Shown here one piece after another: positions 30,001 through 63,993 of a stretch of 64,000 nt of DNA (the stretch's first letter is position 1; each line of letters opens with the position of its first letter). Source of the DNA: an uncultured Gammaproteobacteria bacterium (GTDB taxonomy: Bacteria; Patescibacteriota; Patescibacteriia; UBA11705; JABHMO01); assembly GCA_964590105.1 (NCBI GenBank), contig CAZPYM010000004.1, positions 52,198-116,197 on the forward strand, given 5' to 3'. A program made the position numbers and the translations under genes. The notes under the pieces were generated by a model, which saw only the letters and a program-made list of their open reading frames with translations, had not been told where the DNA came from and did no database searches.

Positions 30001-31939
30001 CAAGCTCAGCCGGAATATAAGCTCCGCCCGGTCCGGTAAAATAAACCTTGCTGCTATCCGGGTCATAATTCAGAAACCCAGCACCAACAATAGAAACCAT
30101 ATTCCCCGGTCCGCCGGTTTTTGGCGCGACATCGGCAATCACCGGTTCAGTGGCGCAAAAACCAAGGCAAGCCGCGCCATCGCAGTCACTGTCAGTTTCG
30201 CAGGCGTTGGCTTCTTCATTGTCACAATTTTTCACACAAATTCCCGCGCATTCATCGTCACTACTACAGACCTCTCCGTCGCACTTGCCGCAATCCGGAT
30301 GATCCTTGCTACAAACAGGCAGACCATCCTGATCAAAACAATATTCCGGCAAAACTGAAACCTGAATTGTTTTCTCTCCCTTGTGGTCGTTAATATCCTC
30401 CACCTCGGCTTTCAGGCTGTGTTTGCCAATCTCCACGCCATCGGTGTCCCAGATGAAAAAACTGGAATATTCTAGCGGCGATTGACCGTCTGGAGGCGTG
30501 TCAATATCATAATAGGCGCCGTCAACAAACAAGCTGACATTACTCACTCCACCATCGTCAGTCGCATTAGTGTTTACTTCAACATCAGCATTCTGGCTGA
30601 CCGAGGTTGTGGGCGCTGTAAAATATACCTCCGGCGACTTGGTGTCAATTAATTCGCCACTGGTAAAGCTAGTGGAACACAAACTGCCGAGCGAACATGA
30701 GAGCCCCAGATCGCCGGCCAATGTTTTCACACCACCAGATTTCAGAGTTACTTTATAGGCGGTATTTTTATCAAAACAGAATAAATCCTGATTTGGTTCG
30801 GGACAAGCCACGCTCGGAGTAAAAGTAACTTTTTGTTTATTGACCGCGTCAACTTCCAGGTTGCCTTCGACGGCGATTTCTTCACTTTCCACAAAACCTT
30901 CATATTCAACATTCAAATTAATATAATCAAATTTAAGACAATTACCGCCCGTCCTGTACCAGGAAATATAAAACTCGCCATTGTCAGCATTTTCATAGCA
31001 AGTCGCCGGCACATCTACCTCGTTAATGCCCGGTGGCGGCAACCAATCAGTTTTTATCGCTGTTGAAACATCTCCGTTTATTTCATCGCCGCATTTAATA
31101 GTCATCTTCGCGTTGCTACCAGAATTAGCACTCTCAAAAATCAATTTAGCGGCCAAGGGTTCGGCGCTACCTATTTCCGTAATGTCAAAAAACACTTTCA
31201 TCGGCGTGGCACCCAGATACTCATTACTACAAACCACCCATGTATTATTCCATATGTTATCGTCCTTTATTATATCGCTCAAAATTGTTTCGCCGTTGCC
31301 ATTGTCTTCCTGGACTTCATAAGGTTCCAAGTTTTCATTCAACACGCCCTTTTCGCCCTGCTTAGTAATTGTAATATTATCAGCAGTAACCGAGTCAGGA
31401 TTAACTGCTTTGGAAAAAATCATCTTTACTTTAACATTTCTGATTGGTACATTGCCCTGCGGCGATACTGTCTTGACAATGAATGAAATCCCCGGCGGAC
31501 TCGGAATATAGCCCCCAGGAGTATACTCGCCAGTTCCGCCGCCGTCGGTTGCCTCAGACAATTTGGTTAGAACAAATGAAGTGATGGCATAAGCGGAAAA
31601 AATAATCACCAGTCCTATGAGACCATTGATCAACCACTTTTTGGCAGTAGTGACTTTTTCGGCATCGCCACCAGCTGTCATGTACAAAAATCCGGCGTAT
31701 AAAACTATTACCAGTCCTATCACACCGATAAATCCCAAAAATATTTTTATAATTTTCCCGATCGTTACTTTTAAATCCTGATTGCCAAGGCCGGATGCAG
31801 TCCCCACTTGATCAAGGCCGGCAACTGCTCCGTTGTCAGCAAAACTAATTCCGATAGAAAACAAAAATACGCCGGTAATGAGGAGAATCATCATCAGACT
31901 AAAAATTTTCCAATATTTTTTGCTCGGTCTGACCAGCAT
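21065..31939 (-). CDS. giant (3624 aa) multidomain cell-surface protein: signal peptide plus pilin-like two-helix hairpin, IPT/TIG-like domains, Cys-rich CGNGxxExGEECD repeats, LamG-like domain, C-terminal VWA domain
   Basis: Single uninterrupted ORF. N-terminal signal/TM, then the hairpin IIKIFLGFIGVIGLVIVLYAGFLYMTAGGDAEKVTTAKKWLINGLIGLVIIFSAYAITSFVL (~nt 31564-31756). IPT/TIG-like PVIADVAPKTGGPGNMVSIVGAGF. Myxococcus-type Cys repeats VCGNGEIEPGEECDD and CCGNGEIEPGEECDQ (~nt 26400-26700). Cys-bracketed Asp loops CKDGLDNDSDGLID and CNDGIDNDSDGLID. MIDAS-like FFIDGSLSMD near the C-terminus (~nt 21070-21700). Confidence 0.7.
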   Translation of the reverse strand: MLVRPSKKYWKIFSLMMILLITGVFLFSIGISFADNGAVAGLDQVGTASGLGNQDLKVTIGKIIKIFLGFIGVIGLVIVLYAGFLYMTAGGDAEKVTTAKKWLINGLIGLVIIFSAYAITSFVLTKLSEATDGGGTGEYTPGGYIPSPPGISFIVKTVSPQGNVPIRNVKVKMIFSKAVNPDSVTADNITITKQGEKGVLNENLEPYEVQEDNGNGETILSDIIKDDNIWNNTWVVCSNEYLGATPMKVFFDITEIGSAEPLAAKLIFESANSGSNAKMTIKCGDEINGDVSTAIKTDWLPPPGINEVDVPATCYENADNGEFYISWYRTGGNCLKFDYINLNVEYEGFVESEEIAVEGNLEVDAVNKQKVTFTPSVACPEPNQDLFCFDKNTAYKVTLKSGGVKTLAGDLGLSCSLGSLCSTSFTSGELIDTKSPEVYFTAPTTSVSQNADVEVNTNATDDGGVSNVSLFVDGAYYDIDTPPDGQSPLEYSSFFIWDTDGVEIGKHSLKAEVEDINDHKGEKTIQVSVLPEYCFDQDGLPVCSKDHPDCGKCDGEVCSSDDECAGICVKNCDNEEANACETDSDCDGAACLGFCATEPVIADVAPKTGGPGNMVSIVGAGFLNYDPDSSKVYFTGPGGAYIPAELGCQASSAWNNYQIIAKVPAQAITGPIKVVNYLNNEDTTDDDDGWVGDFIVDSNINYPGLCSVTLQGCQPTPEVHCDKGAVNNLVRVGGNNFGQKDDDDAAFLGGINFLQGAGFAWSPETILSLQIPLLEKGKKNTVIDKGPQCLDKTTKAVCEQTPENIADCLCKNLYSNPVRFEIVPSENLPKIDMVEPAPAPIGQLITISGQYFGNDTGHVEIHRLIGGDNYDWITAIGCGPESWSDSEVVIKIPETILNTFASPALSDESAYSDEYKIVLYTSQGLVTDPYDYEIVEGPPGPGLCLLDPNNGPEGIGVDFKGEYFGNEGEVYFSKTGGPKINCPDGVAPCDIDEDETCQCAKVPDPGIATSFGDWSAILIENAVVPEKALSGGVFVKSDQKQSNSVSFTVGSCSANSCAEGEECCSTGVCQTVGTCTVEVGYEPSEYMWMMSTGPLPTYPRVIERSCWPGQYTQSPSPFKNTTNACPNGLISATFNMIMKTDPEANSFQNNIIIKRCLNTQGGECNFDICNPNDCVSRTITNAHSNDFNLTNLNLSCYIDGQPGNETCDPEINKDNCFCIGDQVTAFSLDSSLLNEGNDLVPSIVQEGNHNLHENTWYQVTIKGGTGGVSAYSDFFEGYVNMLNDYTWKFKTKSENCVPDKLLMSPLVGLIKTIDGKQKYTVSGQYQCQEIGLSDKDWQWDMVKDIDKQKAEFAGYACFEPADGLICQAPKEFISSSGYFQLKSLSELGQGQTFETPPGKPMEIAAEAELTQDDPLKDTFDSLYKKGFLKVKFADPKIISYYPNCNFACINASIGANFNTFMDKDSFMPETVKLYSCYSSDCVVLTDFGLDQSKIDYQEVENPYYGTSIHELKISLHPNKMEPNTYYRMVVTNGVKSYSGVNLTGLNYSTGNAPGGDCGNRKDDDADGKADVSGGYSAVGAEDKNLDYLCGCYDQAAGIIVSFAEISKTPNCQDDENIQFACVNLKENNAVITDEAELETIQTENEYLAPDPQCAFVSSFEIGASGQYDAFSWIFKTKDDPEECKIDRVETAPVEYMSEQEKEKVEYWAAPYSAPDECSASGQLLDAFAYDWDWLSTKPVVASITNTLLGVETKPYCNDKCQAIGSTPFAAVCGNGEIEPGEECDDSNIENEDGCSEICLREPLANCADPKTQSNCCGNGEIEPGEECDQGCDYLDVNGQACVPVSGLQGCSCVAKGSACTAGCLNTGTAAGFVCGNGKKESGEDADFGGQNSEAGLNEKCLYKGSAYKLGEQLAAAVCGNGVLEVGEECEGESNCTNTCVWKGFPTCTSNCTKEIACSASEAGDPGCVGKKQVACNEGADCIGTVDIPCQEDEECETKTINCIVGVTNGCADGYKEETCFQDDPDCDGQKILDCNQCAGGQIEILCNKGTDADCCDKGTNPFCEKDGAKKISCAACQGEVGKQILSLSCAVSAQDCATGSKTEACLAGSPDCECSNCCGNGIPEDYNGDGKNDEECEATCKKLDGSEYVSCLFGEDDCACALPDYCSAKCLNLGSSYAYDNPSYCNNGTPEAGEDLICECSQAEINAGLCTIGLSNGQNGSPYQMATSVPSGLEVYLDSVYFNEDGTLKSGATQNNFFYDVATGYIIGDTEIQTSTKENPADEAQVGMGDFAFRTNDPDLINKYKDILPHIDDWSKKDDSIIDPIICEATAGLGFDDAASSPVNGSVDVCPNAMLYTSFNKKVYSDEAIIKLYLMSDGSCPTGLSQGAGSWYSKAKEFVRNLLVKVGFAATVECEVGMTMNESTNIVGNTNFSITPKQVLQVGKQYKLKFSNLKNNCDETYEPVNLELNFVAGDSICLLDNVIVEPQQVFVTKANQTNTFRATARSGEQKLTEMPGTYEWVWDWTASDMSIVDSVHTCKMDGSDCVDEPIQPLSNQKKDSDFVNVRNLAKNGSATIMANVVVTKDNISEASPLTGGALGTLGAQKYGTALLNVTLCDHLWEPAAYAPDKEGNNKWSKMQSEIKPGEYHTTYIYENNFNVGLFYCRDFGGPGFEDDLPKLEIGEVEFAGKAPKPRYGIYFDKSFDYVKVPDSGSGNLSFMNNENNPWTIETWLYSEEIPEDRYARIFYKNLSDSSTFEDGKTNNHVQMALRKWGLDCDDDCEWSYENGPNSNNCTCAEEKASIIYTIKTPTHGIVRATTDGVGLLSKGFNHIALKYDGAGGNTTLYVNGVDVTPADNENTVLHVWPRNQAEKDVTVDNDYQSLFIGGLGKTQVPLVSLAGYVDDFRIWNIAKDPQTEDLVNPLGEPNLVGYWKFDENINDVKGLASISKCTVDYIDSKCDPNENFYIINLTELAKEKGLIGGAENIWEELAQDTENQCNDGIDNDSDGLIDIGDHKCKSDTDPWEDPELFEQYFFVRDKSAGPTNDYSSDVISLRIYENPEALPPDIWYQRYAPNPAPTTAEVKIDCQQDRFGKYCYTGAKDGTTVYAAASNMAPVNADDVVNIYNNIYVLGYSQGSNAATQNIYSQLVNLLWFNTDIVTNNLSIVKPELIRDTQRISDMVLTRAYIELYKKTPPHNGAAPLLDAGTYVRGRSFSIWPSWQKELGKALGQTLPTDPLNHFAWEQATKENPGVECGGSGENTYSCPVGGSASDYQCVVPQEFCVNCPVGYDMQTCYNSANQKFSNFYDTNPNLHSVYSYLVDPLETGNTSAYDLQFSLEVPSLEEDASPMYSYKFVPGWGGGDSGWQPLPSQAEVGEVPQCKDGLDNDSDGLIDYPNDLGCATSDDNDEYDAESEAGCDKTLFVFFIDGSLSMDNNPGNDVTKYHRTILNTIVDAAHTVLDGDDYYLVQQSGAGFTGSAGWTSNSQVKLVDPVSNEPQFVKDQINTSSYVGAGNMAKWIDVEFQAANLIKGDYDRVTYILITDASDTGDEPLRNADIALAQEQNANIHLIYIRKDGSPPTVNQEAFFKKYADDTGGLFFLGDETTLSANLGDLVGAVATCKGPAIY

Positions 31940-32098: not shown

Positions 32099-34183
32099 CT
32101 AATGCTCTGGCACACTACACTCAGTTTTGTCTTCTCCGACCAAATTGAACTCCCCCTTTTGTGGACAACAGGAAGTACCAGGGCCACCAATACTTGAACA
32201 TATGCTCTCAGCAACTCCCCCAGTATCTTTTGTCGGGCTATAACAATTCATTCGTGTATCTTTTACTTCTGATTTAATAACCGGCGCGTAAATCGGAATC
32301 ATGGGACTGGCTTCATCATATTCAGCAAAAGGTCCATGGCTAATGGATATTTGGGTAGCCAGAGGCTGAATCATCCCCCCGGCATCAAGATATTCTCCCA
32401 TGTTGGGATCATACCAGCGACTAAAATCTGACTCATCAGAATTCTTGCCGAGAAGCTCAACCTCGGTATCAACCGAATAAGCGTCCAAATCTTCATTAAA
32501 ATTCGCTGTAATCAATATTTGTAAATCCTCAATATTTTCAGTCTTATTATCCGGCAAAACATTTTCGAGAAATGGCGGAGTCAGGTCGAGCGTCTTGCCG
32601 GTTAAAAAATCCCAAAAATAATTATCTATTTGAGCTACTTTGTCGTCGGCGTCGGCATTGATATTGCCTGGGCCCTCGGCTTTGTCATTGGCATTGCCGT
32701 CAAGAGAATTGCCACCCATGTCCATGATGCCCGTGCCGGGTAGAGCCACGCCCTCGCCGACTAATTTCGCCGCTAGAATTTTGGTAACCAAAGTGGCGTC
32801 AGTAGGCAAGCAAAAGGCCGGCTCGCCGCAGGAATTTTTCGCGCCGCCGGCGCACTCGGTGCCTGAAATAAACTGAATGGTTTTATATTTATTGATGCCG
32901 ACTTTCCACTTGCCCGGCAAATGGTTGGTCGAACAATCGCCAATATTTCCGTTCAAAGAAATAATTTGCGCTTCATTATCTTCATCCCCTCCTTTGCACC
33001 CTTGCGTCTGGGTCAAGGGCGGAATTACCGGTTCATTAAAATAAACATAAACACCTTGATTTAAATAGACTTTGTGATCGCAATCCACTTTGGAACAGCC
33101 GATTTCTTTTGGCGAACATTTACAGCCAGCCGGATTACTGACCGGATAGCTGACATCAGCCGGCAAAACCGCGCTGATTTTCGGCGGAGTCAAGTCAAGC
33201 ATGGTGCTGGTGGTAAACCGCCACTTGTAATCAGGATTTTCCGATGTAAATACTGTTTGCGCCGGATTATTTTCTTTTTTAATGCCATTTTTCAAATAAA
33301 CAATATAAGCCATATCTTCTTCAGGACTACCCAGATGATCTTTTTTGCTATCGCCATAAGGATTGAAAATAATGGTCTGATGATCTTCAGTCAAAATTGC
33401 GTAACCAGGAACCAATTTTAAATCATCGTTTATATCCTTAACGTCTGACGCAAGGCAAGTAATCTCAGCCGGATTATCATAATTTTCCGCAATCATATCC
33501 GAGCATTTGAAAACGCGGAAAGCATCTGCTTTCAAAGCGCCGCAATTTGCCAGCTTCGAACCGTCCGGCATATCAGGGCAAAGTCCATTAACATCCATGT
33601 CAATAACCGAACTCGGCAGAACCGGTGTTTTGAAAGTAACAAGAATCATAGTATTGCGCGGCACGCCGGTTTGTTCCGGCGCCGGATAATGGCTTTGGAT
33701 CACATCGCCAAAAGCGCCATTGGACAATCCATATCCGCCGCCAAGAAAACCCGCTTTTTGATATACGGTTCCCGCCGGACTCATTTCCTGGCCGGAAAAC
33801 ATTTTCAATAAAAATGCTGTAATGGAATAAGCGGAAAATATTATCGCAAGACCAATGACAGCATTTATCAGCCACTTTTTGGCTTTAGTGACTTTTTCAG
33901 GATCACCGCCGGCCGTCATGTACAAAAATCCGGCATATAAAACAATACAAATAGCGATAATACCAATCACGCTTAAAAATATTTTTATGATATTGCCGAT
34001 TATTACCCGTAAATCCTGTTTTACCATTCCCGCTTCCTGCGCCACAATATCAAGATTGGCCGCGGCATCATTGCTCTGCGCATGCGCAATAACCGGAACA
34101 AACAAAAAAACTGCCAATATAAATACAAAACAACCGGCAGTTATTTTTGTGGCTAACTGAAATGAGTTTTTGCGAAAAATCAT
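32099..34183 (-). CDS. large (about 695-709 aa) surface protein with N-terminal signal peptide and the same pilin-like hairpin as the giant protein
   Basis: Signal peptide ...FVPVIAHAQS. Hairpin IIKIFLSVIGIIAICIVLYAGFLYMTAGGDPEKVTKAKKWLINAVIGLAIIFSAYSITAFLL is about 80% identical to the giant-protein hairpin. The rest is extracellular and Cys-containing. Start at 34183 (SD-like GAGGGG upstream) is preferred over 34228. Confidence 0.6.
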   Translation of the reverse strand: MIFRKNSFQLATKITAGCFVFILAVFLFVPVIAHAQSNDAAANLDIVAQEAGMVKQDLRVIIGNIIKIFLSVIGIIAICIVLYAGFLYMTAGGDPEKVTKAKKWLINAVIGLAIIFSAYSITAFLLKMFSGQEMSPAGTVYQKAGFLGGGYGLSNGAFGDVIQSHYPAPEQTGVPRNTMILVTFKTPVLPSSVIDMDVNGLCPDMPDGSKLANCGALKADAFRVFKCSDMIAENYDNPAEITCLASDVKDINDDLKLVPGYAILTEDHQTIIFNPYGDSKKDHLGSPEEDMAYIVYLKNGIKKENNPAQTVFTSENPDYKWRFTTSTMLDLTPPKISAVLPADVSYPVSNPAGCKCSPKEIGCSKVDCDHKVYLNQGVYVYFNEPVIPPLTQTQGCKGGDEDNEAQIISLNGNIGDCSTNHLPGKWKVGINKYKTIQFISGTECAGGAKNSCGEPAFCLPTDATLVTKILAAKLVGEGVALPGTGIMDMGGNSLDGNANDKAEGPGNINADADDKVAQIDNYFWDFLTGKTLDLTPPFLENVLPDNKTENIEDLQILITANFNEDLDAYSVDTEVELLGKNSDESDFSRWYDPNMGEYLDAGGMIQPLATQISISHGPFAEYDEASPMIPIYAPVIKSEVKDTRMNCYSPTKDTGGVAESICSSIGGPGTSCCPQKGEFNLVGEDKTECSVPEH

Positions 34184-43512: not shown

Positions 43513-44020
43513 CGCTTCCTCCTTAAAATGTTAACTTCAAAGCTCAAAGCTAAAAACCAACATTCAAATTGATTTGCAACTTTCAACTATTAAAATACTT
43601 GATTTACGTGATTTATTACGTGATATTACATGATAATCACGAACAATATCTTGGCGCGAAGCTATCACCTCTCATTACGTAGCCATCACGTAAACCACGT
43701 CTTTTATAAAAAAACAGCTGACCCGCACAATCAAGCTTACCAGCTCAAGTTCCTTCAGTAAACTGACTGAACTTGACTTGCGGTTACTCCACAGCATAGG
43801 AGGGGACACTGCTTTTCTCCACTGGCAAGCATGATTTCACGGACCAGCTTGTATAATATGATACAGAATTGCTGATCAAACTTGTTTCATCCAGATTTTA
43901 TATTATCCCCGATTAAGTTGTCAAGGATTTCTCATGTAATTAACCATTTCATTATATCATATTTTTGACAAAAAGTCAATAGGCGATTAATAATTCAAAA
44001 TGCTTTGGCTTAAATTAAAC

Positions 44021-53945: not shown

Positions 53946-53973
53946 GAGAAGTGAAATTTAAATGTCACTTCTC
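53946..53973 (+). promoter_or_regulatory. perfect 9-bp inverted repeat gagaagtga-N10-tcacttctc in the leader of the second RSH gene
   Basis: Read directly. Related sequence tgaaatttaaatRtcacttctcac upstream of rpsU (35024-35056), and gagaagtgaaat upstream of der (38990-39010). Confidence 0.4.
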
Positions 53974-53995
53974 ACATCCCACCTCCCCCCGCTAT

Positions 53996-55447
53996 ATGAC
54001 AATCCGCCAATTGATTGAAACAATGAAAGAAAATTATTCTGCCGACGAGATTAGATTAGTCGAGCAGGCTTATGATTTTGCCGCTGAAGCTCACAAAGGG
54101 CAAAAAAGATCAACCGGCGACGATTACATTGAACACTCTTTGCAGACCAGCAAAACCCTAGCCGAGCTAAAACTTCCGGCGCCAATGATCGCGGCCGGCA
54201 TGCTCCACGACGTACCGGAAGACACCAAAAGAACGCTTGACGAAATTACAAAATTATTCGGCACAGACATCGCCAAAATGGTTGAAGGCATTACAAAAGT
54301 TGGCCGCGTTAAATATAGAGGGATTGATCGATACGTTGAAAACCTGCGCAAAATGTTTGTAGCCATGGCCGAAGATATCCGGGTGATAATCATTAAATTT
54401 GCTGACCGCTTGCACAATCTGCAAACTCTCTATGCCCGACCCGCCGATAAACAAAGAAGAATAGCGCTCGAAACTCTGGAAATATATGCGCCAATTGCCA
54501 ATCGACTAGGAATTGGAGAACTCCAAGCCAGACTTGAAGATGCTGCATTTAAATACGCTTATCCGGAAGAATACATCAAAACAGAACAAATGATAAAAAA
54601 GAATTTTCCGATCAAAAAGAAAACGCTAAATAACATGATCCGAAAAATAAAAAATAAATTAGACAAAGACTCTATTAAATATTATGATATATATGGACGA
54701 ACAAAACATTATTACAGTTTTTACAGAAAATTTCTTAAATACAACAGGGACATAAAACAAATATACGATTTGGTGGCCATGCGTATCATCGTGAACTCTG
54801 TTGCTGATTGTTACGCTACGCTCGGCGTGATCCACAATCTCTGGCGGCCAATCCGTGGTAAAATCAAGGATTACATTGCTCAGCCAAAACCAAACGGCTA
54901 TCAATCACTGCACACTGCAGTATTTGGCGATGATCAGGAAATTGTTGAAATACAAATTCGAACGCAAAAAATGCACGAGCAGGCAGAACTCGGTATTGCC
55001 AGCCACTGGCGCTACAAAGAAATGCCGAAAGCCGGCAAAAAAGAAATTGAATGGGTCAGCGAGCTAGCCAGCTGGCTAAAAAATGTCAAAAACAACGACC
55101 AACTTTTGGAAGGCGCAAAAATTGATGTTTTCCAAAACAGAATTTTTGTATTCACGCCACAGGGCGATGTTATTGATCTGCCTGACGGCGCCACACCGGT
55201 TGATTTTGCTTATCACATCCACACGGAAATCGGCAATAAATGCTCCAGGGCCATGGTTAATACTGAAATCGTGTCGCTCGACCGAAAACTAAAAAACGGC
55301 GACGTGGTGCAAATTATTACTGACAAAAATCGAAAAGGGCCAAATCCTGAATGGCTTAAATTCATAAAAACCAGAACCGCCCGCGCCCACGTCGAATCTC
55401 AAAAAAATAAAAACTGGAAAAAATTCATTCCAAAATTTTCCAAATAA
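53996..55447 (+). CDS. bifunctional RelA/SpoT homologue ((p)ppGpp synthetase/hydrolase) with intact HD domain, synthetase and TGS; no ACT domain
   Basis: HD motif EHSLQ...AGMLHDVPEDT. Synthetase RIIVNSVADCYATLGVIHNLWRP, YQSLHTAV, EIQIRTQKMH. TGS IFVFTPQGDVIDLPDGATPVDFAYHIHTEIG. ATG at 53996 preferred over the GTG at 53951, which lies inside the leader hairpin. Confidence 0.85.
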   Translation: MTIRQLIETMKENYSADEIRLVEQAYDFAAEAHKGQKRSTGDDYIEHSLQTSKTLAELKLPAPMIAAGMLHDVPEDTKRTLDEITKLFGTDIAKMVEGITKVGRVKYRGIDRYVENLRKMFVAMAEDIRVIIIKFADRLHNLQTLYARPADKQRRIALETLEIYAPIANRLGIGELQARLEDAAFKYAYPEEYIKTEQMIKKNFPIKKKTLNNMIRKIKNKLDKDSIKYYDIYGRTKHYYSFYRKFLKYNRDIKQIYDLVAMRIIVNSVADCYATLGVIHNLWRPIRGKIKDYIAQPKPNGYQSLHTAVFGDDQEIVEIQIRTQKMHEQAELGIASHWRYKEMPKAGKKEIEWVSELASWLKNVKNNDQLLEGAKIDVFQNRIFVFTPQGDVIDLPDGATPVDFAYHIHTEIGNKCSRAMVNTEIVSLDRKLKNGDVVQIITDKNRKGPNPEWLKFIKTRTARAHVESQKNKNWKKFIPKFSK

Positions 55448-55472: not shown

Positions 55473-58400
55473 ATGAAGCGATTGCCGGCTTTCCTGTTTA
55501 TTTTTACGATTAGCATTGTTTTATTTATCTTCTTACCGATCGCTCCGGCCGAGGCGGCTATTTGGGACATCCAGTACAATGGCGCGAATTATTGCTGCAA
55601 CAGTTCTTACAACACTTGCTACAATGCTTTCGACTGGGCCTACTTGATTTACAATGATAATAAAAGCAAAAGCGACGCCAACCCAAATAACGACACAAAT
55701 ATTGCAACAGACACTGCCAGCATGTGTCGTGAAATCGGCGACTGCATAGCAACAACCTGCGAAAACAAACCTGATCCGCTGACAGCCAAATGCAGTATTA
55801 ATAAACCATCCGCCTGCAAAAATGAATTCCAATGCGACCAACAAAATCCTGACGACGCCCTACCGACAGATCCTAAATTAGTCTGGGACGGCGCTAAATG
55901 TCTCTCAAACGGCATTAACTGCAGCAGTAAATCAGATTGCCCTGCTCAACAATATTGCTGTCTCAGCAAACATGACGACTGCACACCCTACACTTGCACT
56001 ATCGTTAAGCCAACTTATGATATTACTTGCGACGAAAACATTAGTAATTGCTTGAAAACCGCGCCACAGCAGTGCGAAGAGGACTGTATACAAGCAAAAC
56101 AAGACAAATGTGACGAATGTAGACAAGAAAAAATAGAAAAATGTAATACTGCCTGCGACGACCTAACGGAAAACCAAGATGACTGTAAAACCGGCTGCCC
56201 AGACGGAGTAGACGACGCAATAGATAACCTAGAAATATGTCAAAATGACTGCCAAAACATACAAGGCGCAGCAACCTATGTGTGCACCAAGCCCTGTCTA
56301 GATCAGGCGCTCAAAGATTGTCGAAACGAACAACCTGGAGGGGCCTGCAAAGAATGTGAGCAAGATTATGAATGTATTACAGAAAACTGCGCTTCCATAG
56401 ACACCACTATAGGAGAACAAGCGATAAGCCCACTTGAGATGGTAAAATTTGTCTGTCGAGCAAAACCATGTGTAAAAAATAAAGATTGTACAGACGCCGG
56501 ACTCTACGGAACATACTGCCACATTGACAATTTAGACCCGAACCATAATGAATGTCTTCCGCTAAAACAACTCGGGGATTCATGCCTAAGCAGTGACGAC
56601 TGCGCACCAGGATTGCATTGTCCGAATTTTGTTTGTGTAGCCGAATGCATAGATGACGCTGAATGTCCGAAATCTCAATATTGTAATTGGTACGGACTTA
56701 ATGGTAGCCCGACTATAAAGGGTGATCCAAATTCAGATCATATATGCTATGACCTAGTACCAGTAGGAGGCTCTTGTAAGTATTCAAATCAATGCTTGTC
56801 CGGCCTCACCTGCAGTGGCGGAAAATGCTCCAAAGCCGGCCCGCCACCACCGCCGTCTACCGATGAAAAATATTTCACCGGATCCAAATGCTACAATGCT
56901 ATCACCTCGCTAAAAGATCTATGCCCAACGGAAAAATTTCACATGTGGGATGGCATCAAGTGCAATAATACTATTTTTCTTATAAAAACATATTGCAACA
57001 CCTCGTTTTCTTACGACAGTTATACTCAAATGGACGCTGCGGTTCTGGCCGGCGAGGACGTGTCCCAAATGTTAGCTGCAGAAGCAAACATGTTTGATGA
57101 TCCGGCGGACGCAGATCTATATATCAATCCCTTGACCACAATTTCGTTCCCCTGCGGAATTATAGATGATCAATTAATCAACTGCGACACGAAAGGAAAA
57201 TGCGATATTTTATTCCCCTTCCCTCTGGATAACTGGTACGACGATCAATGCCACAAAGACGCGCAAGCTTGCGACACGCACGCCGACTGTACTGTAGAAA
57301 AATATTGCGACCCCACGACAAAAAAATGCTTTGCTAAAAAATACGCAGGAGAATCAGCGCCGGATGTTTTTGCCTGTTTTGGCGGTTATTTTTCCAATAA
57401 ATGCACCTGCACAGGAGGGACAACTGTCGGCTGTCCTGCCGGCCTGGAATGCGAAAGCATGTTCAACTGCGCCGCGCCCAAAGCCTGCGGTCCGAGCAAT
57501 CCCGACTGTCCCGCCGGAAAATTCTGCAATATTGATAATCAAAAACTACCGATAAATCAGTGTTTGGCAAAACAAGAAAAAGGAAAAGGCTGCGTTTCCC
57601 CTAATGAGTGCATCACTGATATGTGCTTTGATGGAAAATGCGACGATGCATATGCACCGGGAACAAAAAAAGAGGGTGAGTCTTGCACAGCTAATCCCAA
57701 AACGCCCGACTGCGTCAAAGGATTTTACTGCGATCCCGCCGGCAATACATGCTCTGCTCAAAAAAAGACAGGAGATGAATGTGCGTTTGCAGTTGAATGT
57801 CTCTCCATAAAATGCACAGCCAATAAATGCGAGCCCATGCCGGGAGAACAAAAATATGGCACCAAAGCAGAAGGCGTCGCCTGCACTGACTATGCAACAA
57901 TCAAACAAAATGATTGTAGCAGTGGTCTATTCTGCTCCGAAGGAACTCAAAAAGTTTGCGTTAAACAAGCTCCGGTCGGTGAAAGTTGCTCCGCCAATTA
58001 TTATTGCATATCAAATTCCTGCGATCTAGCGTCGGGCGGAACAAAAAAGTGTCTCTCTGTAGCCGGCGCGCCAGGAGAAGTCTGCTCCCCCGCCTGCAAT
58101 GCCTGGGAAACTTGTTCCAATAGCGCCTGTAAACTAAATGCCGGCGCCTGCAAGGTCGAAGCTGACTGCGCAGCTGAAGCCACAAATAAATATTGCAATA
58201 CCACAACAAATAAATGCGAAGCGCCAAAGCTATGCACTGATGCAAAGGACTGCACTGATGCACAATATTGCGCCACTACCTGCAAAGATAAACTGACGAG
58301 TGGCTTGGCCTGCACTGCCCCTGAACAATGTTTTTCTTCGGAAGGTTGCCTTGAGAGCAAATGCGCCTGTACTGACACCAAAGAATGCCCGAAAGACAAT

Positions 58401-59519
58401 TATTGCGCTGCAAAAAAATGCACCGCTAAATTGGGCGAGGGCGGAGTCTGCACCGACGCCACCAAAGATATCTGTCTGTCCGGCGAATGTAAAGATGAAA
58501 AGTGCGTGGCTCCGGCAACCGGACCACCCCCGCCGGCCCCGGTCTGCACTCCTACTTGTACTAATGCCTGGGAAGAATGCCAGGCCGGCACGCCCAATGC
58601 CTGCAAACTAAAAGCCGGCATGTGCAACCTAGAAGCTGACTGCGCGGCGGCTACCGACAAAAAAACCTACTGCAATACGACAAAACATGAATGTGAAACA
58701 CCAAAAGCCTGCAAAAAAACAAGCGACTGCACAGCGACACAATATTGCGACACCAAAGCAAAAGCTTGCAAAGACAAACTGGCTTCAGGATTAGCCTGCG
58801 AAGATGCTACTCAATGTCTTTCAATCAACGGCTGCACGAACAAAAAATGCGCCTGCGAAAAATCAGCTGATTGTCCAAAATCTCAATACTGCGGTGGGAC
58901 AACTTTTGAATGCATCGAAAAAACAAAAGTCGGAGACTCTTGTCCGTTCAGCACTACATTTTGCAAAGATATTTGCATCAGTGGTATCGCCAAAGCCGAT
59001 CCCGCAGATGCAACAAAAAGTATCTGCATTTGTGATAATACCTCTCAATGCGAAGACGGCAAATACTGTTCAAATAACGGCGCCGAAAAAGACAAATGTG
59101 TTGACAAGCTGGCGGAAGGGGCAAAGTGCGCAATGGACGGCGTGTGCAAATCAGGGAAATGCCTTATAGATAGTGGAAGTGGAAAAACAGAAGGCGTGTG
59201 TTCAAAACCGGCGGCAGTGGCGCCAGGCGGAGCAGGCGGCGGAACGCCGGTTGTCTCAATCCTCCTGCCAAATTTTCTCGGCACTGATGACCCGTCCGAT
59301 GTTATCGGCCGTGTTATCAATTATATTGTCGGACTAGCCGGCACCGCGGCCATGGTCATGTTTATTTACGGCGGAGCGATGTGGCTGATTTCAGCCGGCC
59401 GGCCGGAATATGTTAGTAAAGGGAGAGACACCATGATGTGGGCGGCGATCGGACTGTTTCTGATTTTTACGAGTTATGTGCTGATTAAATTTATTGTTAA
59501 ATTGCTCGGTTCAGGATAA
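55473..59519 (+). CDS. 1348-aa Cys-rich secreted protein with N-terminal signal peptide and a C-terminal pilin-like two-helix hairpin
   Basis: Signal peptide MKRLPAFLFIFTISIVLFIFLPIAPAEA. Hundreds of Cys in repeated CxxDCxxxQYC-type modules, with an internal tandem duplication of about 560 nt (~57980-58540 versus ~58540-59100). C-terminal VINYIVGLAGTAAMVMFIYGGAMWLISAGRPEYVSKGRDTMMWAAIGLFLIFTSYVLIKF is homologous in architecture to the N-terminal hairpins of the 3624-aa and 709-aa proteins. Confidence 0.65.
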   Translation: MKRLPAFLFIFTISIVLFIFLPIAPAEAAIWDIQYNGANYCCNSSYNTCYNAFDWAYLIYNDNKSKSDANPNNDTNIATDTASMCREIGDCIATTCENKPDPLTAKCSINKPSACKNEFQCDQQNPDDALPTDPKLVWDGAKCLSNGINCSSKSDCPAQQYCCLSKHDDCTPYTCTIVKPTYDITCDENISNCLKTAPQQCEEDCIQAKQDKCDECRQEKIEKCNTACDDLTENQDDCKTGCPDGVDDAIDNLEICQNDCQNIQGAATYVCTKPCLDQALKDCRNEQPGGACKECEQDYECITENCASIDTTIGEQAISPLEMVKFVCRAKPCVKNKDCTDAGLYGTYCHIDNLDPNHNECLPLKQLGDSCLSSDDCAPGLHCPNFVCVAECIDDAECPKSQYCNWYGLNGSPTIKGDPNSDHICYDLVPVGGSCKYSNQCLSGLTCSGGKCSKAGPPPPPSTDEKYFTGSKCYNAITSLKDLCPTEKFHMWDGIKCNNTIFLIKTYCNTSFSYDSYTQMDAAVLAGEDVSQMLAAEANMFDDPADADLYINPLTTISFPCGIIDDQLINCDTKGKCDILFPFPLDNWYDDQCHKDAQACDTHADCTVEKYCDPTTKKCFAKKYAGESAPDVFACFGGYFSNKCTCTGGTTVGCPAGLECESMFNCAAPKACGPSNPDCPAGKFCNIDNQKLPINQCLAKQEKGKGCVSPNECITDMCFDGKCDDAYAPGTKKEGESCTANPKTPDCVKGFYCDPAGNTCSAQKKTGDECAFAVECLSIKCTANKCEPMPGEQKYGTKAEGVACTDYATIKQNDCSSGLFCSEGTQKVCVKQAPVGESCSANYYCISNSCDLASGGTKKCLSVAGAPGEVCSPACNAWETCSNSACKLNAGACKVEADCAAEATNKYCNTTTNKCEAPKLCTDAKDCTDAQYCATTCKDKLTSGLACTAPEQCFSSEGCLESKCACTDTKECPKDNYCAAKKCTAKLGEGGVCTDATKDICLSGECKDEKCVAPATGPPPPAPVCTPTCTNAWEECQAGTPNACKLKAGMCNLEADCAAATDKKTYCNTTKHECETPKACKKTSDCTATQYCDTKAKACKDKLASGLACEDATQCLSINGCTNKKCACEKSADCPKSQYCGGTTFECIEKTKVGDSCPFSTTFCKDICISGIAKADPADATKSICICDNTSQCEDGKYCSNNGAEKDKCVDKLAEGAKCAMDGVCKSGKCLIDSGSGKTEGVCSKPAAVAPGGAGGGTPVVSILLPNFLGTDDPSDVIGRVINYIVGLAGTAAMVMFIYGGAMWLISAGRPEYVSKGRDTMMWAAIGLFLIFTSYVLIKFIVKLLGSG

Positions 59520-59771
59520 TAAACAATTCATTTCAAATAAAAAATTTCCCGGCAATATCTTTGTCCGGGGAATTTTTGTTTTTCTTTATTTTCCCTTTTC
59601 CCTTCTCGCGTCCAACTTTTACCTTTTACCTGATTCTTTCCCTTCGGCAATTGAGCTAATACTTTTACCTTTTACTTTCCTCCTTTTCCCCCTATTGACA
59701 AAACACTATCATTAAGTTAAGCTATCATATTAAAGTAATGTTCATTGACAACAAAACCCGAGGAGGGAAGA

Positions 59772-60794
59772 ATGAGTCCAATAACAATCAGTGCGATAGT
59801 TTTGGCCATTGCCCTCGCGGCAATGTATATTTCAAAATGTCTGCTCAAAACATCGAAAATCACAATCACGGTACTCGATGAATTCGGCGCCGAGCCAGTG
59901 GACATCCGTATGCCAGGCTGGTCCTGGATCTGGTGGCCAAAAAATACTGTTCACGATGTAATCCCGACTGACGAGCGGGCCTACAACGTAACGGAATTTG
60001 AAATGGTTTGCCTGGTGGAAAATGGCGATATTCAGGTTGGCTCTGCTCACAGACAGCACGGACTCGGCCGAGTGGCGTCCGATGAAATCAGCTTTGGCTA
60101 CAGAGTCAAATTTCATACAGAATATGAGCAAAGAAACTATTTAAGGACTCTGGGAAAAAATAACCAAAGGGTTTTCACTATCAAAGAACAGCTGGACAAA
60201 TACTATTCGCTGGTAAAAGTCGCGCCTGATGGCACGAGAGATATCAGCCGTCTGGAAAATGAAAGAATCCGAGACTTGATTCAATCTCTCTTTAGAAAAG
60301 AAGTTTCTGCCATGTTTTTGTTTCATGCTATTAAAATCACCTCTGCCGACGTAAAACATCTACGCGGCATTATTGAAGAGCGTTTCCAAGAGGAAGCTCT
60401 TCCTCTCGTCTGCACTGACCTGTCTATCAATAATCCATTTGAACCGGCGACTAAAAAACTTCAGGATGCGATAAGCAAGCGCTCTGAAGCGGCGCTGGAA
60501 ATGGAAGCTGCCGTTGTAAACGCGGAAAAAGACAGAAAGCTGGCGGAGATCGGCATCAAGACTGCCGAAGCCAATGCCAAGGCAATGCTGGTTTCCGCGG
60601 AAATGCTGGCCAAAGCCTGGGGCATTGACAAATTGCCGCCGGAACAGCAGGTTACCACTTTCCTGAAGAAAGAAGCGATTCAAGCATTCCGCGACATCGG
60701 CTCAAGTCAGAGCACAAAGATCTTGATTGGCACCAATCTGATGGGTGAAATCAATTCAGCCCTGGGAAAAGTGCTGGACTCGGGAGCTAAGTGA
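59772..60794 (+). CDS. SPFH/band-7 domain membrane protein (stomatin/prohibitin/HflKC-like)
   Basis: SD GAGGAGGG 5 nt upstream of ATG 59772. N-terminal TM ITISAIVLAIALAAMYI. SPFH-like core. C-terminal Ala/Glu-rich coiled coil (AEANAKAMLVSAEMLAKA). Confidence 0.65.
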   Translation: MSPITISAIVLAIALAAMYISKCLLKTSKITITVLDEFGAEPVDIRMPGWSWIWWPKNTVHDVIPTDERAYNVTEFEMVCLVENGDIQVGSAHRQHGLGRVASDEISFGYRVKFHTEYEQRNYLRTLGKNNQRVFTIKEQLDKYYSLVKVAPDGTRDISRLENERIRDLIQSLFRKEVSAMFLFHAIKITSADVKHLRGIIEERFQEEALPLVCTDLSINNPFEPATKKLQDAISKRSEAALEMEAAVVNAEKDRKLAEIGIKTAEANAKAMLVSAEMLAKAWGIDKLPPEQQVTTFLKKEAIQAFRDIGSSQSTKILIGTNLMGEINSALGKVLDSGAK

Positions 60795-61498
60795 TGAACA
60801 ATAAACCCGCTCGAATCTTTTTCGCATTCATTGCCGCGGCCGCTGTCAGCATGATAATCATCGAGCTGACAGTGGCCACCTGGCCGTTTGAACACAAGAT
60901 CATCCTGCCGCTGGCGATCGTCATCACCGGCCTAATCAAATTGCTGACTGACATTTTCAAAACCAAAAAAAAGCCGGCACCGGCTTCTGCCGCTCCGCCC
61001 GCAACTCCCGCCGAACCGGCTCCGCCAAGAAACGAAACCGGAAGTAAAGCAATCAACTTTTTCGTCGGCCTGGTGTTCCTGTGTTTTTGGATTATAGTTC
61101 TGGCTACCATGGTGTGGGCCGGCATCTGGCTGTACAACTCAATGCGAAAAGATATCCGGGAAATCATTAACTCCAGTCATGAAATCAAAGCGATTGAACC
61201 ACTACCCATAGGACACTCTAATAATCAGCAAGTTGACTTTGAAAAGGATCTCTGGCTGGTGCCGGGCACTGTTTACGACGCTTTTACGCTTGAGCAAGGA
61301 CAGCAGTGGAAATGGAGTGTGCTGTCGAAAGATATCTACTACCGCGTGAAGCAAACTGGCCAAGAAGAATTTTCGCTGATTGATCGCGAACAGAACCAAG
61401 GCCATAACCATTCCGCTAATTACGACGGTATATTGCAATTGAAAACAGAACACCGCCACACGCATGTGACGGTGATCAGAATGTTCCGAACAAAATAA
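60794..61498 (+). CDS. hypothetical membrane protein (3 TM helices, Pro/Ala-rich linker)
   Basis: TGATG overlap with the SPFH gene stop, which suggests a coupled operon. No family recognised. Confidence 0.35.
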   Translation: MNNKPARIFFAFIAAAAVSMIIIELTVATWPFEHKIILPLAIVITGLIKLLTDIFKTKKKPAPASAAPPATPAEPAPPRNETGSKAINFFVGLVFLCFWIIVLATMVWAGIWLYNSMRKDIREIINSSHEIKAIEPLPIGHSNNQQVDFEKDLWLVPGTVYDAFTLEQGQQWKWSVLSKDIYYRVKQTGQEEFSLIDREQNQGHNHSANYDGILQLKTEHRHTHVTVIRMFRTK

Positions 61499-63907: not shown

Positions 63908-63993
63908 GCCGCCGTGGCGAAACTGGTAGACGCGCACGACTCAAAATCGTGTGGAGTTCCTCCATGTCGGTTCGACTCCGACCGGCGGCACCA
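63908..63993 (+). tRNA. tRNA-Leu (anticodon CAA), class II with long variable arm, CCA encoded
   Basis: gccgccgtggcgaaactggtagacgcgcacgactcaaaatcgtgtggagttcctccatgtcggttcgactccgaccggcggcacca. The 7-bp acceptor stem gccgccg/cggcggc pairs. The anticodon loop CUCAAAA gives CAA. Near-identical in layout to E. coli tRNA-Leu(CAA). Confidence 0.85.

What the first reader, a model, noticed from the sequence alone, without database searches (positions are those of the whole stretch)
55473..59519. Same pilin-like hairpin reused at the C-terminus of a 1348-aa Cys-rich secreted protein (module shuffling with consistent topology)
- The 1348-aa protein has a cleavable N-terminal signal peptide and a huge Cys-rich ectodomain with an internal ~560-nt tandem duplication.
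- Its last ~70 residues form the two-helix hairpin VINYIVGLAGTAAMVMFIYGGAMWLISAGRPEYVSKGRDTMMWAAIGLFLIFTSYVLIKF.
- A two-helix hairpin has both ends on the same side of the membrane, so an ectodomain can be attached to either end.
- The N-terminal attachment here and the C-terminal attachment in the 3624-aa and 709-aa proteins are topologically equivalent.
- That is the signature of a portable anchoring or polymerisation module.
Basis: seen in the sequence. Interest (0 to 1): 0.65.

Follow-up and report, generated by a model that had tools for sequence, protein, structure and literature searches.

The report
Conjugative-type pilin fused to cysteine-rich stalk
A 1348-residue secreted, cysteine-rich protein of an uncultured ultrasmall bacterium ends in a genuine conjugative-type (VirB2-like) pilin hairpin, one of a widespread but apparently undescribed set of "modular pilins" that could be the missing surface adhesins of these bacteria.

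Summary
The ORF (55473-59519, +) is real. It has a signal peptide, about 1230 residues with 150 Cys and at least 11 Dickkopf-like knots, and a C-terminal two-helix hairpin. The hairpin is not generic hydrophobicity. It matches Pfam PF18895 (T4SS_pilin) above threshold, as do the N-terminal hairpins of the 3624-aa and 709-aa proteins. It scores 67 bits against a profile built only from N-terminal-type modules; shuffles reach at most 15 bits.

Two corrections:
- The three hairpins are old paralogues (25-28% identity), not one reused copy.
- The internal duplication has a period of about 475 nt, not 560.

The family is very large (68,459 cluster representatives). The module occurs at the N-terminus, at the C-terminus, in tandem (up to 17 matched stretches in one ORF) and interspersed with ectodomains. 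The 1348-aa gene is a fast-evolving positional orthologue (276-1348 aa) in a conserved RelA–ParB neighbourhood. It sits at the long end of a continuum that starts with 131-aa free pilins.

Best reading: a modular VirB2-like pilin that anchors a disulphide-rich stalk on the cell surface and possibly displays it on the pilus. Pilus incorporation is untested, and no T4SS genes lie nearby. I found no paper describing this architecture.

The parts
55473..59519 (+). Gene for the 1348-aa modular pilin (stop codon included)
   Evidence: ORF list. The identical protein P0003 occurs on independent assemblies.
55473..55556 (+). Sec-type signal peptide, residues 1-28 (MKRLPAFLFIFTISIVLFIFLPIAPAEA|A)
   Evidence: Hydrophobic segment 1-33. 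The A-x-A site is read from the sequence. The cleavage site is inferred, not predicted by a dedicated tool.
55557..56855 (+). Ectodomain part I, residues 29-461: N-terminal 'CC' head plus Cys-rich region, ending in GPPPPP
   Evidence: Residues 1-145 align to the head of the second unit of the L009 orthologue (29% identity, E 1e-10). Dickkopf_N 39 bits and EB module 21.5 bits.
56862..59222 (+). Ectodomain part II, residues 464-1250: equivalent to the whole mature ectodomain of shorter family members (P0069, P0126)
   Evidence: Residues 464-1018 and 967-1347 align to P0069 residues 23-480 and 179-579; the latter is 41.6% identical, E 3e-73. Nine of the 11 Dickkopf-like units detected in the protein lie here.
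58071..58484 (+). Internal duplication, copy 1 (residues 867-1004)
   Evidence: BLASTP against copy 2: 50% identity over 151 columns, E 6e-36. DNA direct repeats spaced 474 and 477 nt.
58533..58985 (+). Internal duplication, copy 2 (residues 1021-1171)
59208..59300 (+). Gly/Pro/Ala-rich linker (residues 1246-1264) and conserved junction motif LPNFLGTDDPSD (residues 1265-1276)
   Evidence: P, N and L of the motif are invariant in alignment A2. The same motif (ELPNPLGTDNP) begins the mature part of the free 131-aa pilin P0164.
59286..59495 (+). PF18895 T4SS_pilin match (residues 1272-1341). Helix 1 is 59292-59390, the basic loop follows, helix 2 is 59403-59510
   Evidence: Pfam 41.4 bits for the full protein and 48.5 bits for the tail alone. 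AlphaFold2 helices. Coordinates checked.
59540..59577 (+). Intrinsic terminator hairpin followed by a U-tract, 21 nt after the stop codon
   Evidence: RNA fold -19.4 kcal/mol, z = -5.9, 0 of 200 shuffles fold as well. Sequence.
31571..31777 (-). Paralogous pilin module at the N-terminus (residues 55-123) of the 3624-aa protein (gene 21065-31939, minus strand)
   Evidence: PF18895 35.1 bits. Sequence. Ig-like, TIG and LamG-like domains follow the module.
33812..34009 (-). Paralogous pilin module at the N-terminus (residues 74-139) of the 709-aa ORF (gene 32099-34228, minus strand; likely start at 34183, giving 694 aa)
   Evidence: PF18895 46.0 bits and TrbC/VirB2 PF04956 28.7 bits, above its cutoff of 27.9. 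The 694-aa form is the one on record.

Best explanation
The 1348-aa ORF is a modular member of the VirB2-like pilin family of Patescibacteria (Pfam PF18895).

Shown:
- The C-terminal 70-75 residues are a bona fide pilin module.
- The module is preceded by the same LPNxLGTDxP motif that begins the mature part of small free pilins of this subfamily.
- Between the signal peptide and that motif lies a disulphide-rich stalk of Dickkopf-like knots.
- In positional orthologues and relatives the stalk ranges from none, through one knot, to at least 11 knots here.

Inferred:
- The protein is exported by Sec and the signal peptide is cut.
- The hairpin inserts with its basic loop in the cytoplasm and both ends outside, so the stalk stands on the cell surface.
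- The pilin module is conserved about as well as neighbouring housekeeping proteins, while the stalk diverges fast. I therefore propose it is more than an anchor.
- The proposal is that the type IV secretion pilus machinery takes it up as a minor or tip subunit. Both pilin termini point away from the lumen, so the stalk would be displayed on the outside of the pilus for contact with a host cell.
- The 3624-aa and 709-aa proteins would do the same from the other terminus.
For: Identity of the module:
- PF18895 is above its gathering score in all three proteins. TrbC/VirB2 PF04956 is above threshold in the 709-aa protein and scores E 1.4e-4 for the 1348 tail alone.
- All three give sub-threshold hits to the Mycoplasma ICE pilin-like family NF045849.
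- The tail scores 67 bits against an N-type-only profile, whereas shuffles reach at most 15 bits.
- The closest relatives of the tail are small proteins of 77-179 aa, 41-64% identical. NCBI names several of them 'pilin'.

Continuum of architectures (with for the longer forms):
- P0164, 131 aa: signal peptide, linker, ELPNPLGTDNP, hairpin.
- P0155-P0157, 174-178 aa: one Cys knot added.
- Longer forms of 276-279, 583-766 and 1348 aa.

Orthology and rates:
- Seven loci share the order DprA-Mur-TopA-RelA-RelA-[this gene]-u349-u235-u189-ParB-ParA.
- In these loci, most of the named housekeeping neighbours (TopA, the two RelA/SpoT, ParB, ParA) are 58-85% identical to the window, with DprA and Mur at 50-69%. 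BLASTP matches centred on the hairpin are 60-63% identical in the two short orthologues. Alignments spanning the ectodomain are only 26-33% identical.

Topology:
- Three hydrophobic segments only, a basic loop and an acidic pre-helix flank.
- In solved conjugative pili the positively charged inter-helix loop faces the lumen. The N- and C-termini lie next to each other, close enough to be cyclised (PMC11722321).

Machinery:
- The genome that carries the syntenic orthologue KKR54711.1 (GCA_000996245.1, class ABY1) is reported to encode VirB4, TrsD and coupling proteins (PMC12102498 Tables S1 and S3).
- Pilin arrays are essential in the cultivated patescibacterium Southlakia (PMC10633639).
Against: - No T4SS gene (VirB4, VirB6, TrsD, coupling protein) lies in the 64-kb window or in the flanks that could be fetched (up to 10 kb each side) for any of the syntenic loci. 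Linkage to a pilus machine is therefore only genome-level, and shown for one relative.
- I could not inspect the rest of this organism's genome.
- An ectodomain of 1250-3500 residues could not sit on every subunit of a tightly packed pilus. Incorporation would have to be rare or terminal, and nothing tests this.
- Fold and sequence comparison with solved pilins gave nothing significant. The link to VirB2 rests on profile HMMs alone.
- For the 1348 tail and the 3624-aa protein, the classical TrbC/VirB2 model is below its curated cutoff.
Confidence: 0.55

Rival explanations
1. Anchor only. The pilin hairpin has been co-opted as a two-helix membrane anchor that holds large surface proteins on the cell. 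It never enters a pilus and has no functional tie to a T4SS.
For: - The gene sits among housekeeping genes, with its own terminator, in all syntenic loci. No T4SS genes are nearby.
- Giant membrane-bound surface proteins are known in CPR bacteria and are thought to mediate host attachment (PMC8080830).
- Very large ectodomains are hard to fit into a pilus lattice (inference).
Against: - A plain anchor should drift towards generic hydrophobicity. Here family-specific Gly, Tyr-x-Gly, loop and IGL positions are kept.
- The hairpin is conserved about as well as housekeeping neighbours while the ectodomain diverges fast.
- Minimal members add a single 50-aa knot to an otherwise ordinary pilin. That looks like a decorated pilin rather than an anchored adhesin.
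Confidence: 0.35
2. Precursor. The protein is cleaved at or near the conserved LPNFLG junction. This would release a soluble Cys-rich protein and leave an ordinary small pilin, so the ectodomain would be a giant pro-region.
For: - The junction motif is highly conserved and preceded by a flexible Gly/Pro linker.
- In free pilins the signal-peptidase site lies a few to about 25 residues upstream of the same motif.
- Classical pilins undergo extensive terminal processing (PMC11722321).
Against: - No hydrophobic segment precedes the junction, so signal peptidase I has no h-region to act on.
- The motif lacks the Thr of sortase LPXTG signals, and it is part of the mature free pilins rather than a removed segment.
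- No protease gene is linked to the locus.
Confidence: 0.08
3. The resemblance between the three hairpins is only that of any pair of transmembrane helices, or the ORF is an assembly or gene-call fusion of a secreted protein with a neighbouring pilin gene.
For: - Fold search returns only generic helical hairpins such as ATP synthase subunit c.
- In L009 two complete units lie in one reading frame, which shows that neighbouring units can become fused.
Against: - Curated profile hits are above threshold, and the shuffle controls fail by more than 50 bits.
- The identical 1348-aa ORF occurs in three independent assemblies.
- The same architecture occurs in orthologues from other genomes and in database proteins.
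Confidence: 0.02

Closest known systems
Small VirB2-like pilins of Patescibacteria (Pfam PF18895 T4SS_pilin), including the essential pilin array of Southlakia epibionticum and the arrays of 2-11 genes surveyed by Quiñonero-Coronel et al. 2025
   Same: - Same Pfam family above threshold.
- 41-64% identity between the 1348 tail and free pilins.
- Same signal peptide, LPNxLG motif and two-helix hairpin with a basic loop (PMC12102498, PMC10633639).
   Different: - Those pilins are about 110-180 aa and often lie in arrays next to virB4.
- This protein carries about 1230 extra residues between the signal peptide and the mature pilin N-terminus.
- It lies in a housekeeping neighbourhood.
- The published survey did not list its orthologue KKR54711.1.
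Classical conjugative pilins VirB2 / TrbC / TraA / TrhA (Pfam PF04956 and solved F-, T- and H-pilus structures)
   Same: - Signal-peptide-dependent two-helix hairpin with a positively charged loop.
- The termini lie on the side opposite the loop.
- PF04956 passes its cutoff for the 709-aa paralogue.
   Different: - The 1348 tail (22.5 bits) and the 3624-aa protein (18.1 bits) are below the PF04956 cutoff of 27.9.
- No significant match to any solved pilin by sequence or fold.
- Classical pilins carry no large passenger domain, to my knowledge.
Modular type IV pilins (for example Streptococcus sanguinis PilB/PilC, where a pilin module is fused to an adhesive module). Recalled from my own knowledge, not tested here
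   Same: The concept is the same: a polymerisation module fused to a functional ectodomain, so that the fibre displays an adhesin.
   Different: - It is an unrelated pilin fold and machinery, with a class III signal peptide and prepilin peptidase. The 1348-aa N-terminus has no G|F-x-x-x-E type prepilin motif (read).
- Type IV pilin modules can only be N-terminal. This hairpin module is found at either end.
Giant surface proteins of CPR bacteria (for example Vampirococcus lugosii, 1392-4163 aa; PMC8080830) and Gram-positive T4SS adhesins such as PrgB
   Same: Large, membrane-associated, adhesion-domain-rich proteins proposed to bind host cells. The 3624-aa paralogue has Ig-like, TIG and LamG-like domains.
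   Different: - The passages I read from those papers do not mention a pilin-module anchor.
- PrgB is sortase-anchored.
- The Patescibacteria survey reports that no PrgB-like adhesins were found.

Membership tests
Pfam PF18895 T4SS_pilin (VirB2-like pilins, mostly Patescibacteria) | Profile HMM score above the curated gathering score (26.6 bits), covering most of the 71-position model | tested here: met
   - 1348-aa protein: 41.4 bits, model positions 3-71; tail alone 48.5 bits.
- 709-aa protein: 46.0 bits.
- 3624-aa protein: 35.1 bits.

Pfam PF18895 T4SS_pilin | Two long helices joined by a short basic loop, preceded by a Sec signal peptide | tested here: met
   - AlphaFold2 gives helices 1274-1306 and 1311-1346.
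- Three hydrophobic segments only.
- The loop carries 3 K/R.
Pfam PF18895 T4SS_pilin | Small free-standing protein (about 110-180 aa), as in the members described in the literature | tested here: not met
   The protein is 1348 aa with a 1250-residue passenger. It is therefore filed as a variant architecture, not a typical member.
Classical TrbC/VirB2 pilin (Pfam PF04956) | Profile HMM score above the gathering score (27.9 bits) | tested here: not met
   - 1348 tail: 22.5 bits, E 1.4e-4.
- 3624-aa protein: 18.1 bits.
- Met only by the 709-aa paralogue at 28.7 bits.
- Some close free relatives carry both families.
Classical TrbC/VirB2 pilin / T4SS pilus subunit | Encoded with, or at least alongside, a T4SS (VirB4, VirB6 or TrsD and so on) | tested here: inconclusive
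   - None lies in the 64-kb window or in the available flanks (up to 10 kb each side) of the syntenic loci.
- The genome of the orthologue KKR54711.1 is reported to have VirB4 and TrsD elsewhere.
- The rest of this organism's genome could not be reached.
Classical TrbC/VirB2 pilin / T4SS pilus subunit | Polymerises with phospholipid into an extracellular filament | not testable with these tools
   Needs multimer modelling or experiment. Monomer fold search is uninformative for a helical hairpin.
Dickkopf N-terminal Cys-rich domain (Pfam PF04706) | Profile HMM score above the gathering score (25 bits) | tested here: met
   - 36 bits with 3 stretches in the full protein, and 39 bits in part I.
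- Orthologues reach 55-65 bits.
- This shows a shared cysteine-knot pattern. It implies nothing about Wnt-related function.
Sortase-anchored LPXTG surface proteins | LPXTG motif, then a single C-terminal hydrophobic segment and a basic tail | tested here: not met
   The motif is LPNFLG, with no Thr at position 4. It is followed by two helices, and it is also present in mature free pilins.
Type IV (class III signal peptide) pilins | Short basic leader ending in Gly, followed by a hydrophobic N-terminal helix with Glu5 | tested here: not met
   The N-terminus MKRLPAFLFIFTISIVLFIFLPIAPAEA|AIWD is a classical Sec signal peptide with an A-x-A site (read).

The most novel reading that the evidence does not exclude
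Patescibacteria build VirB2-type pili that are decorated or tipped with giant adhesins, by co-polymerising 'modular conjugative pilins'. The pilin hairpin can carry a passenger at either terminus, or be chained into multi-pilin polyproteins. This would supply the host-recognition adhesins that surveys of their essential T4SS have reported as missing.
Probability: 0.3. Interest if true: 0.75.

Novelty: new variant of a known kind. Interest (0 to 1): 0.55.

Why it matters
- The T4SS and its VirB2-like pilins are essential for the epibiotic life of the one genetically tractable patescibacterium (PMC10633639). What the pilus binds or delivers is unknown.
- The published survey states that no adhesins were found (PMC12102498).
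- If large, fast-evolving, disulphide-rich or Ig/LamG-rich ectodomains are covalently attached to pilin modules, they are obvious candidates for host-specificity determinants. They would also be handles for pull-downs, labelling and host prediction in uncultured lineages.
- For pilus biology in general, this would be the first case, to my knowledge, of a conjugative-type pilin carrying big passenger domains, and at either terminus.
- If the hairpin proves to be only an anchor, the result is still useful. PF18895 hits cannot then be counted as pilus subunits without checking protein length and architecture.

Tried and rejected
- Tandem Repeats Finder found no tandem array in the gene. The duplication appears only at protein level.
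- Word-index searches were of limited use. The 93-aa tail alone gave 2 hits and the full protein returned only itself. The exhaustive profile search and the alignment query were needed.
- A PDB sequence search with the hairpin profile gave only noise, with Smoothened helices at E about 0.5.
- Foldseek of the AlphaFold2 tail against the PDB gave no hit with E ≤ 0.001. The best was ATP synthase subunit c. A helical hairpin is too simple for fold search.
- Walking along the source genome failed. The source is a 594-kb contig. I used the look-up of encoding contigs to look for VirB4, but only short contigs ending inside the window's range were returned.
- Structure prediction of the conserved downstream gene u349 did not work. 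Pfam gave nothing for u349, u235 or u189.
- A sortase-signal reading of LPNFLG was rejected, because there is no Thr, two helices follow, and the motif is present in mature free pilins.
- A type IV pilin reading was rejected, because there is no class III signal peptide.
- Nine literature searches (one further query was rejected for syntax) found no description of pilin modules fused to large ectodomains. This is absence within the searchable library only.


Full report
**What is at the coordinates.**
ORF 55473-59519 (+) encodes 1348 aa. The identical protein (P0003) is found on independently assembled contigs from ENA, Logan and JGI samples, always in the same gene neighbourhood. It is therefore not an assembly or gene-call accident.

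The protein has exactly three hydrophobic segments. One is N-terminal, ending in AEA|A, and two lie in the last 70 residues. All 150 cysteines lie between them.

AlphaFold2, given seven related tails, folds the last 97 residues as two long helices joined by a 4-residue turn. These are residues 1274-1306 and 1311-1346, with pLDDT 80-86 in the helices. A strong terminator hairpin with a U-tract follows the stop codon (-19.4 kcal/mol, z = -5.9).

**Is the hairpin similarity more than hydrophobicity?** Yes.
- Pfam PF18895 (T4SS_pilin) is matched above its gathering score by the C-terminus of this protein (41.4 bits). It is also matched by the N-terminal hairpins of the 709-aa (46.0 bits) and 3624-aa (35.1 bits) proteins.
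- The 709-aa protein also passes the classical TrbC/VirB2 model PF04956.
- The tail alone gives 48.5 bits for PF18895 and a sub-threshold 22.5 bits (E 1.4e-4) for PF04956.
- All three give sub-threshold hits to NCBIfam NF045849, a pilin-like conjugal transfer protein of Mycoplasma ICEs.
- As an independent control I built an HMM from 20 N-terminal-type modules only. The 1348 tail scores 67.1 bits. In each case 1000 shuffles were run: composition shuffles give 0.0±1.6 bits (maximum 8.6), and shuffles kept within each helix and loop give 0.3±2.4 bits (maximum 14.9).
- Family-wide conserved columns across 429 modules are Gly and Ala in helix 1, Tyr-x-Gly at its end, t-s-x-Gly in the loop, a-k after it, and a-x-i-G-l in helix 2.

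A six-frame scan finds only these three copies in the window.

**Corrections to the observation.**
- The three hairpins are paralogues, not copies. The 1348 hairpin is 28% and 25% identical to the other two, which are 66% identical to each other.
- The internal duplication is real: residues 867-1004 against 1021-1171, 50% identity, E 6e-36. Its period is 474-477 nt by DNA repeat spacing, not about 560 nt. TRF does not see it.

**The family and its architectures.**
A profile of the three hairpins, searched exhaustively against 1.84 billion cluster representatives, finds 68,459 proteins at E ≤ 1e-3 and 19,117 at E ≤ 1e-10. I re-scanned the best 150 plus the window and locus proteins, 160 in all. 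The module placements were as follows:

| Architecture | Proteins |
|---|---|
| Tandem modules only (a single ORF can hold many; up to 17 matched stretches) | 98 |
| Single N-terminal module followed by an ectodomain of 479-3909 aa | 20 |
| N-terminal tandem followed by an ectodomain | 12 |
| Single C-terminal module after an ectodomain | 9 |
| Modules with ectodomains between them | 7 |
| Ectodomain followed by tandem modules | 5 |
| Small proteins | 9 |

This sample is ranked by total score, so it over-represents multi-copy proteins. The proportions are not population frequencies. P0010 (555 aa) is a clear case: one signal peptide followed by six consecutive hairpins.

Modules cluster by architecture. 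C-terminal-type modules are 59-100% identical to their nearest C-type neighbour and 35-51% identical to N-type modules. N-type modules are 66-73% identical to each other. The module is portable on an evolutionary scale, but the fusions are old and lineage-specific.

**The C-terminal-type subfamily.**
Database proteins P0069 (583 aa), P0126 (683), P0151 (739) and P0150 (199) share this protein's plan. P0151 is KKQ80449.1, a 'hypothetical protein' of Parcubacteria GW2011_GWC2_38_7. The plan is a signal peptide, Cys-rich Dickkopf-like repeats, a Gly/Pro/Thr linker, the motif [LI]PN[FM]L[GF][TV][DE][DE]P, and then the hairpin.

A profile of these tails retrieves 811 proteins at E ≤ 1e-10. The best 120 are all 77-179 aa, 41-64% identical to the 1348 tail, and several are named 'pilin' by NCBI. 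Among them:
- P0164 (131 aa) is signal peptide, Ser/Thr linker, ELPNPLGTDNP and hairpin.
- P0155-P0157 (174-178 aa) insert exactly one 50-residue Cys knot between the signal peptide and that motif.

There is therefore a continuum from an ordinary pilin to this 1348-aa protein. A unit HMM finds at least 11 knots here, against 2-9 in relatives.

The 1348-aa protein is itself composite:
- Residues 1-145 match the head of one orthologue's second unit (29% identity, E 1e-10).
- Residues 464-1347 match essentially the whole mature P0069 (41.6% over 423 columns, E 3e-73).
- A GPPPPP linker lies between the two parts.
- In locus L009 two complete units (signal peptide, stalk, hairpin, twice) lie in one reading frame. 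This points to tandem duplication and fusion as the growth mechanism.

**Genomic context.**
The window is chromosomal and housekeeping. It holds FtsZ/FtsA, ribonucleotide reductase, HisS, Der, Pth, LepB, DprA, TopA, two RelA/SpoT paralogues and ParAB. No T4SS gene is present.

Scans of genome and metagenome collections with the junction motif returned seven loci (six distinct). All are syntenic: DprA-Mur-TopA-RelA1-RelA2-[Cys-rich pilin]-u349-u235-u189-ParB-ParA. Identity to the window in these loci:

| Element | Identity to the window |
|---|---|
| TopA, RelA1, RelA2, ParB, ParA | 58-85% |
| DprA, Mur | 50-69% |
| BLASTP match centred on the hairpin (the two short orthologues) | 60-63% |
| Alignments spanning the ectodomain | 26-33% |

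The length of the Cys-rich pilin gene ranges from 276 to 1348 aa. It is thus a fast-evolving positional orthologue with a well-conserved hairpin.

Flanks beyond ParA encode a phosphoesterase, a glycosyltransferase, a D-Ala-D-Ala carboxypeptidase and ScpB, again with no T4SS genes.

One orthologue (L004) is KKR54711.1, a 'hypothetical protein' of Parcubacteria GW2011_GWA2_40_23. The T4SS survey of Patescibacteria lists that genome (GCA_000996245.1, GTDB class ABY1) as VirB4-positive. Its rows include TrsD, VirB4, two coupling proteins, a VirB3-like protein and one VirB2 hit (KKR55270.1). KKR54711.1 itself is not listed (PMC12102498 Tables S1 and S3).

A T4SS therefore exists in at least one genome carrying the orthologue, encoded elsewhere, and the published census did not register the modular form. 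By similarity of the neighbours, the window's organism is probably a relative in the same class. This is an inference.

**Topology.**
With a cleaved signal peptide and two further membrane helices, the ectodomain is outside whether it precedes or follows the hairpin. The loop carries about 3 K/R in every architecture class, and the segment before helix 1 is acidic, as the positive-inside rule expects for a cytoplasmic loop.

In solved conjugative pili the positively charged helix-loop-helix faces the lumen. The N- and C-termini lie together at the other end, close enough to be cyclised in TrhA and TrbC (PMC11722321). A passenger on either terminus would therefore point away from the lumen.

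**Mechanism and its status.**
Shown:
- Family membership.
- The architecture.
- Orthology and rapid stalk evolution.
- The continuum from free pilins.
- Consistent topology signals.

Inferred:
- Sec export, signal-peptide cleavage, and surface display of a disulphide-bonded stalk anchored by the hairpin.

Proposed, at roughly one chance in three:
- The intact pilin module allows uptake into the VirB2-type pilus as a rare or terminal subunit that displays the stalk. The same would hold for the Ig/TIG/LamG-rich 3624-aa and 709-aa proteins.

The main rival is that the hairpin serves only as an anchor. The absence of linked T4SS genes and the bulk of the passengers favour that rival. Against it stand three points: the family-specific residues are retained, the hairpin's conservation is comparable to that of housekeeping neighbours, and minimal one-knot members exist.

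Cleavage at the junction to release a soluble protein is possible but has no supporting feature.

**Comparison with what is known.**
VirB2-like pilins of Patescibacteria are known. They have been surveyed with this very Pfam model, occur in arrays of 2-11 genes, and are essential in Southlakia (PMC12102498, PMC10633639, PMC12857230). VirB2-like pili were recently proposed for Gram-positive conjugation as well (bioRxiv 10.64898/2025.12.18.695078).

Giant membrane proteins of CPR bacteria are known as putative adhesins (PMC8080830). I found no paper that connects the two, meaning one that describes pilin modules fused to large ectodomains at either end or chained in one ORF. The survey states that no adhesins were detected. 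The domain co-occurrence is, however, already visible in precomputed Pfam annotations.

I therefore rate this a new variant of a known kind and of moderate interest. The functional claim remains unproven.

Noticed in passing
Database proteins, e.g. P0010 (555 aa, 6 modules), P0009 (1775 aa, 17 matched stretches), P0013, P0054: Many single ORFs consist of 2 to many PF18895 hairpins in tandem behind a single signal peptide ('polypilins'; 98 of the 160 proteins examined). Published work describes arrays of separate pilin genes, not chained modules. Whether these ORFs are cut into single pilins is unknown. In P0016 an A-H-A site follows helix 2 of the first module, but the linkers of P0010 show no clear site.
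   Followed up: partly
window 59745-60794 (+) and 60791-61498 (+); orthologues in L004, L008, L009, L011, L012: Two membrane-protein genes (349 aa and 235 aa, overlapping by 4 nt) lie directly downstream of the modular pilin gene in five of the seven syntenic loci (L003 ends before them; only the start of u349 is held in L010). u349 was matched in all five of those (and its start in L010); u235 reached the BLAST cut-off only in L008. They evolve as fast as the stalk, at 24-31% identity against 58-85% for most housekeeping neighbours. There is no Pfam hit, and the single-sequence AlphaFold2 model was unusable (pLDDT 36). They may be functionally linked to the pilin gene.
   Followed up: partly
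L009 8561-10861 (+), also database protein P0007: Two complete units (signal peptide, Cys-rich stalk, pilin hairpin) occur one after the other in a single 766-aa reading frame with no stop codon between them. The second signal peptide begins at residue 254. This is a snapshot of tandem duplication and fusion at this locus.
   Followed up: partly
window 21065-31939 (-) and 32099-34228 (-): The two N-terminal-type modular pilins are adjacent tandem genes with 66% identical pilin modules. The 3624-aa protein carries Ig-like (Big_5, Big_7), TIG, LamG-like and myxo-type acidic disulphide repeats. Its C-terminal region has a DGSLS motif and only a weak VWA hit (14 bits). Database relatives reach 4039 aa.
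   Followed up: partly
Supplementary Table S3 of PMC12102498, rows for GCA_000996245.1: The published T4SS census lists one VirB2 hit (KKR55270.1) for this ABY1 genome but not the 720-aa modular orthologue KKR54711.1. Counts of VirB2 homologues in such surveys may therefore miss modular forms, or elsewhere silently include them.
   Followed up: partly
window 41089-43572, both strands (GC about 0.50 against about 0.42 elsewhere): This is a GC-rich stretch with no Pfam or Rfam match. It encodes odd low-complexity secreted proteins on the minus strand. One is a 310-aa His/Tyr/Trp/Lys-rich protein with KGKAKPKGKATYQGK repeats. Another is a 112-aa Tyr/Arg-rich protein. There are also two paralogous small membrane proteins (173 and 132 aa).
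   Followed up: no
window 52260-53903 (+) and 53951-55447 (+): Two tandem RelA/SpoT-family genes (HD, RelA_SpoT and TGS domains) lie immediately upstream of the modular pilin gene and are conserved in all syntenic loci. The second ends 25 nt before the pilin gene's start codon, so co-transcription is possible.
   Followed up: no
window 18955-20115 (-) and 20258-20917 (-): Two further predicted membrane or secreted proteins lie just downstream of the 3624-aa gene. They have Pro/Ala/Glu-rich linkers and bacterial thrombospondin type 3 (Ca-binding, DSDGDG) repeats, so they may belong to the same surface apparatus.
   Followed up: no
window 63908-63993 (+): A tRNA-Leu (CAA) gene lies next to parA at the right edge of the window. 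Independent assemblies of this region all break here: the contigs returned end within about 500 nt beyond parA.
   Followed up: no
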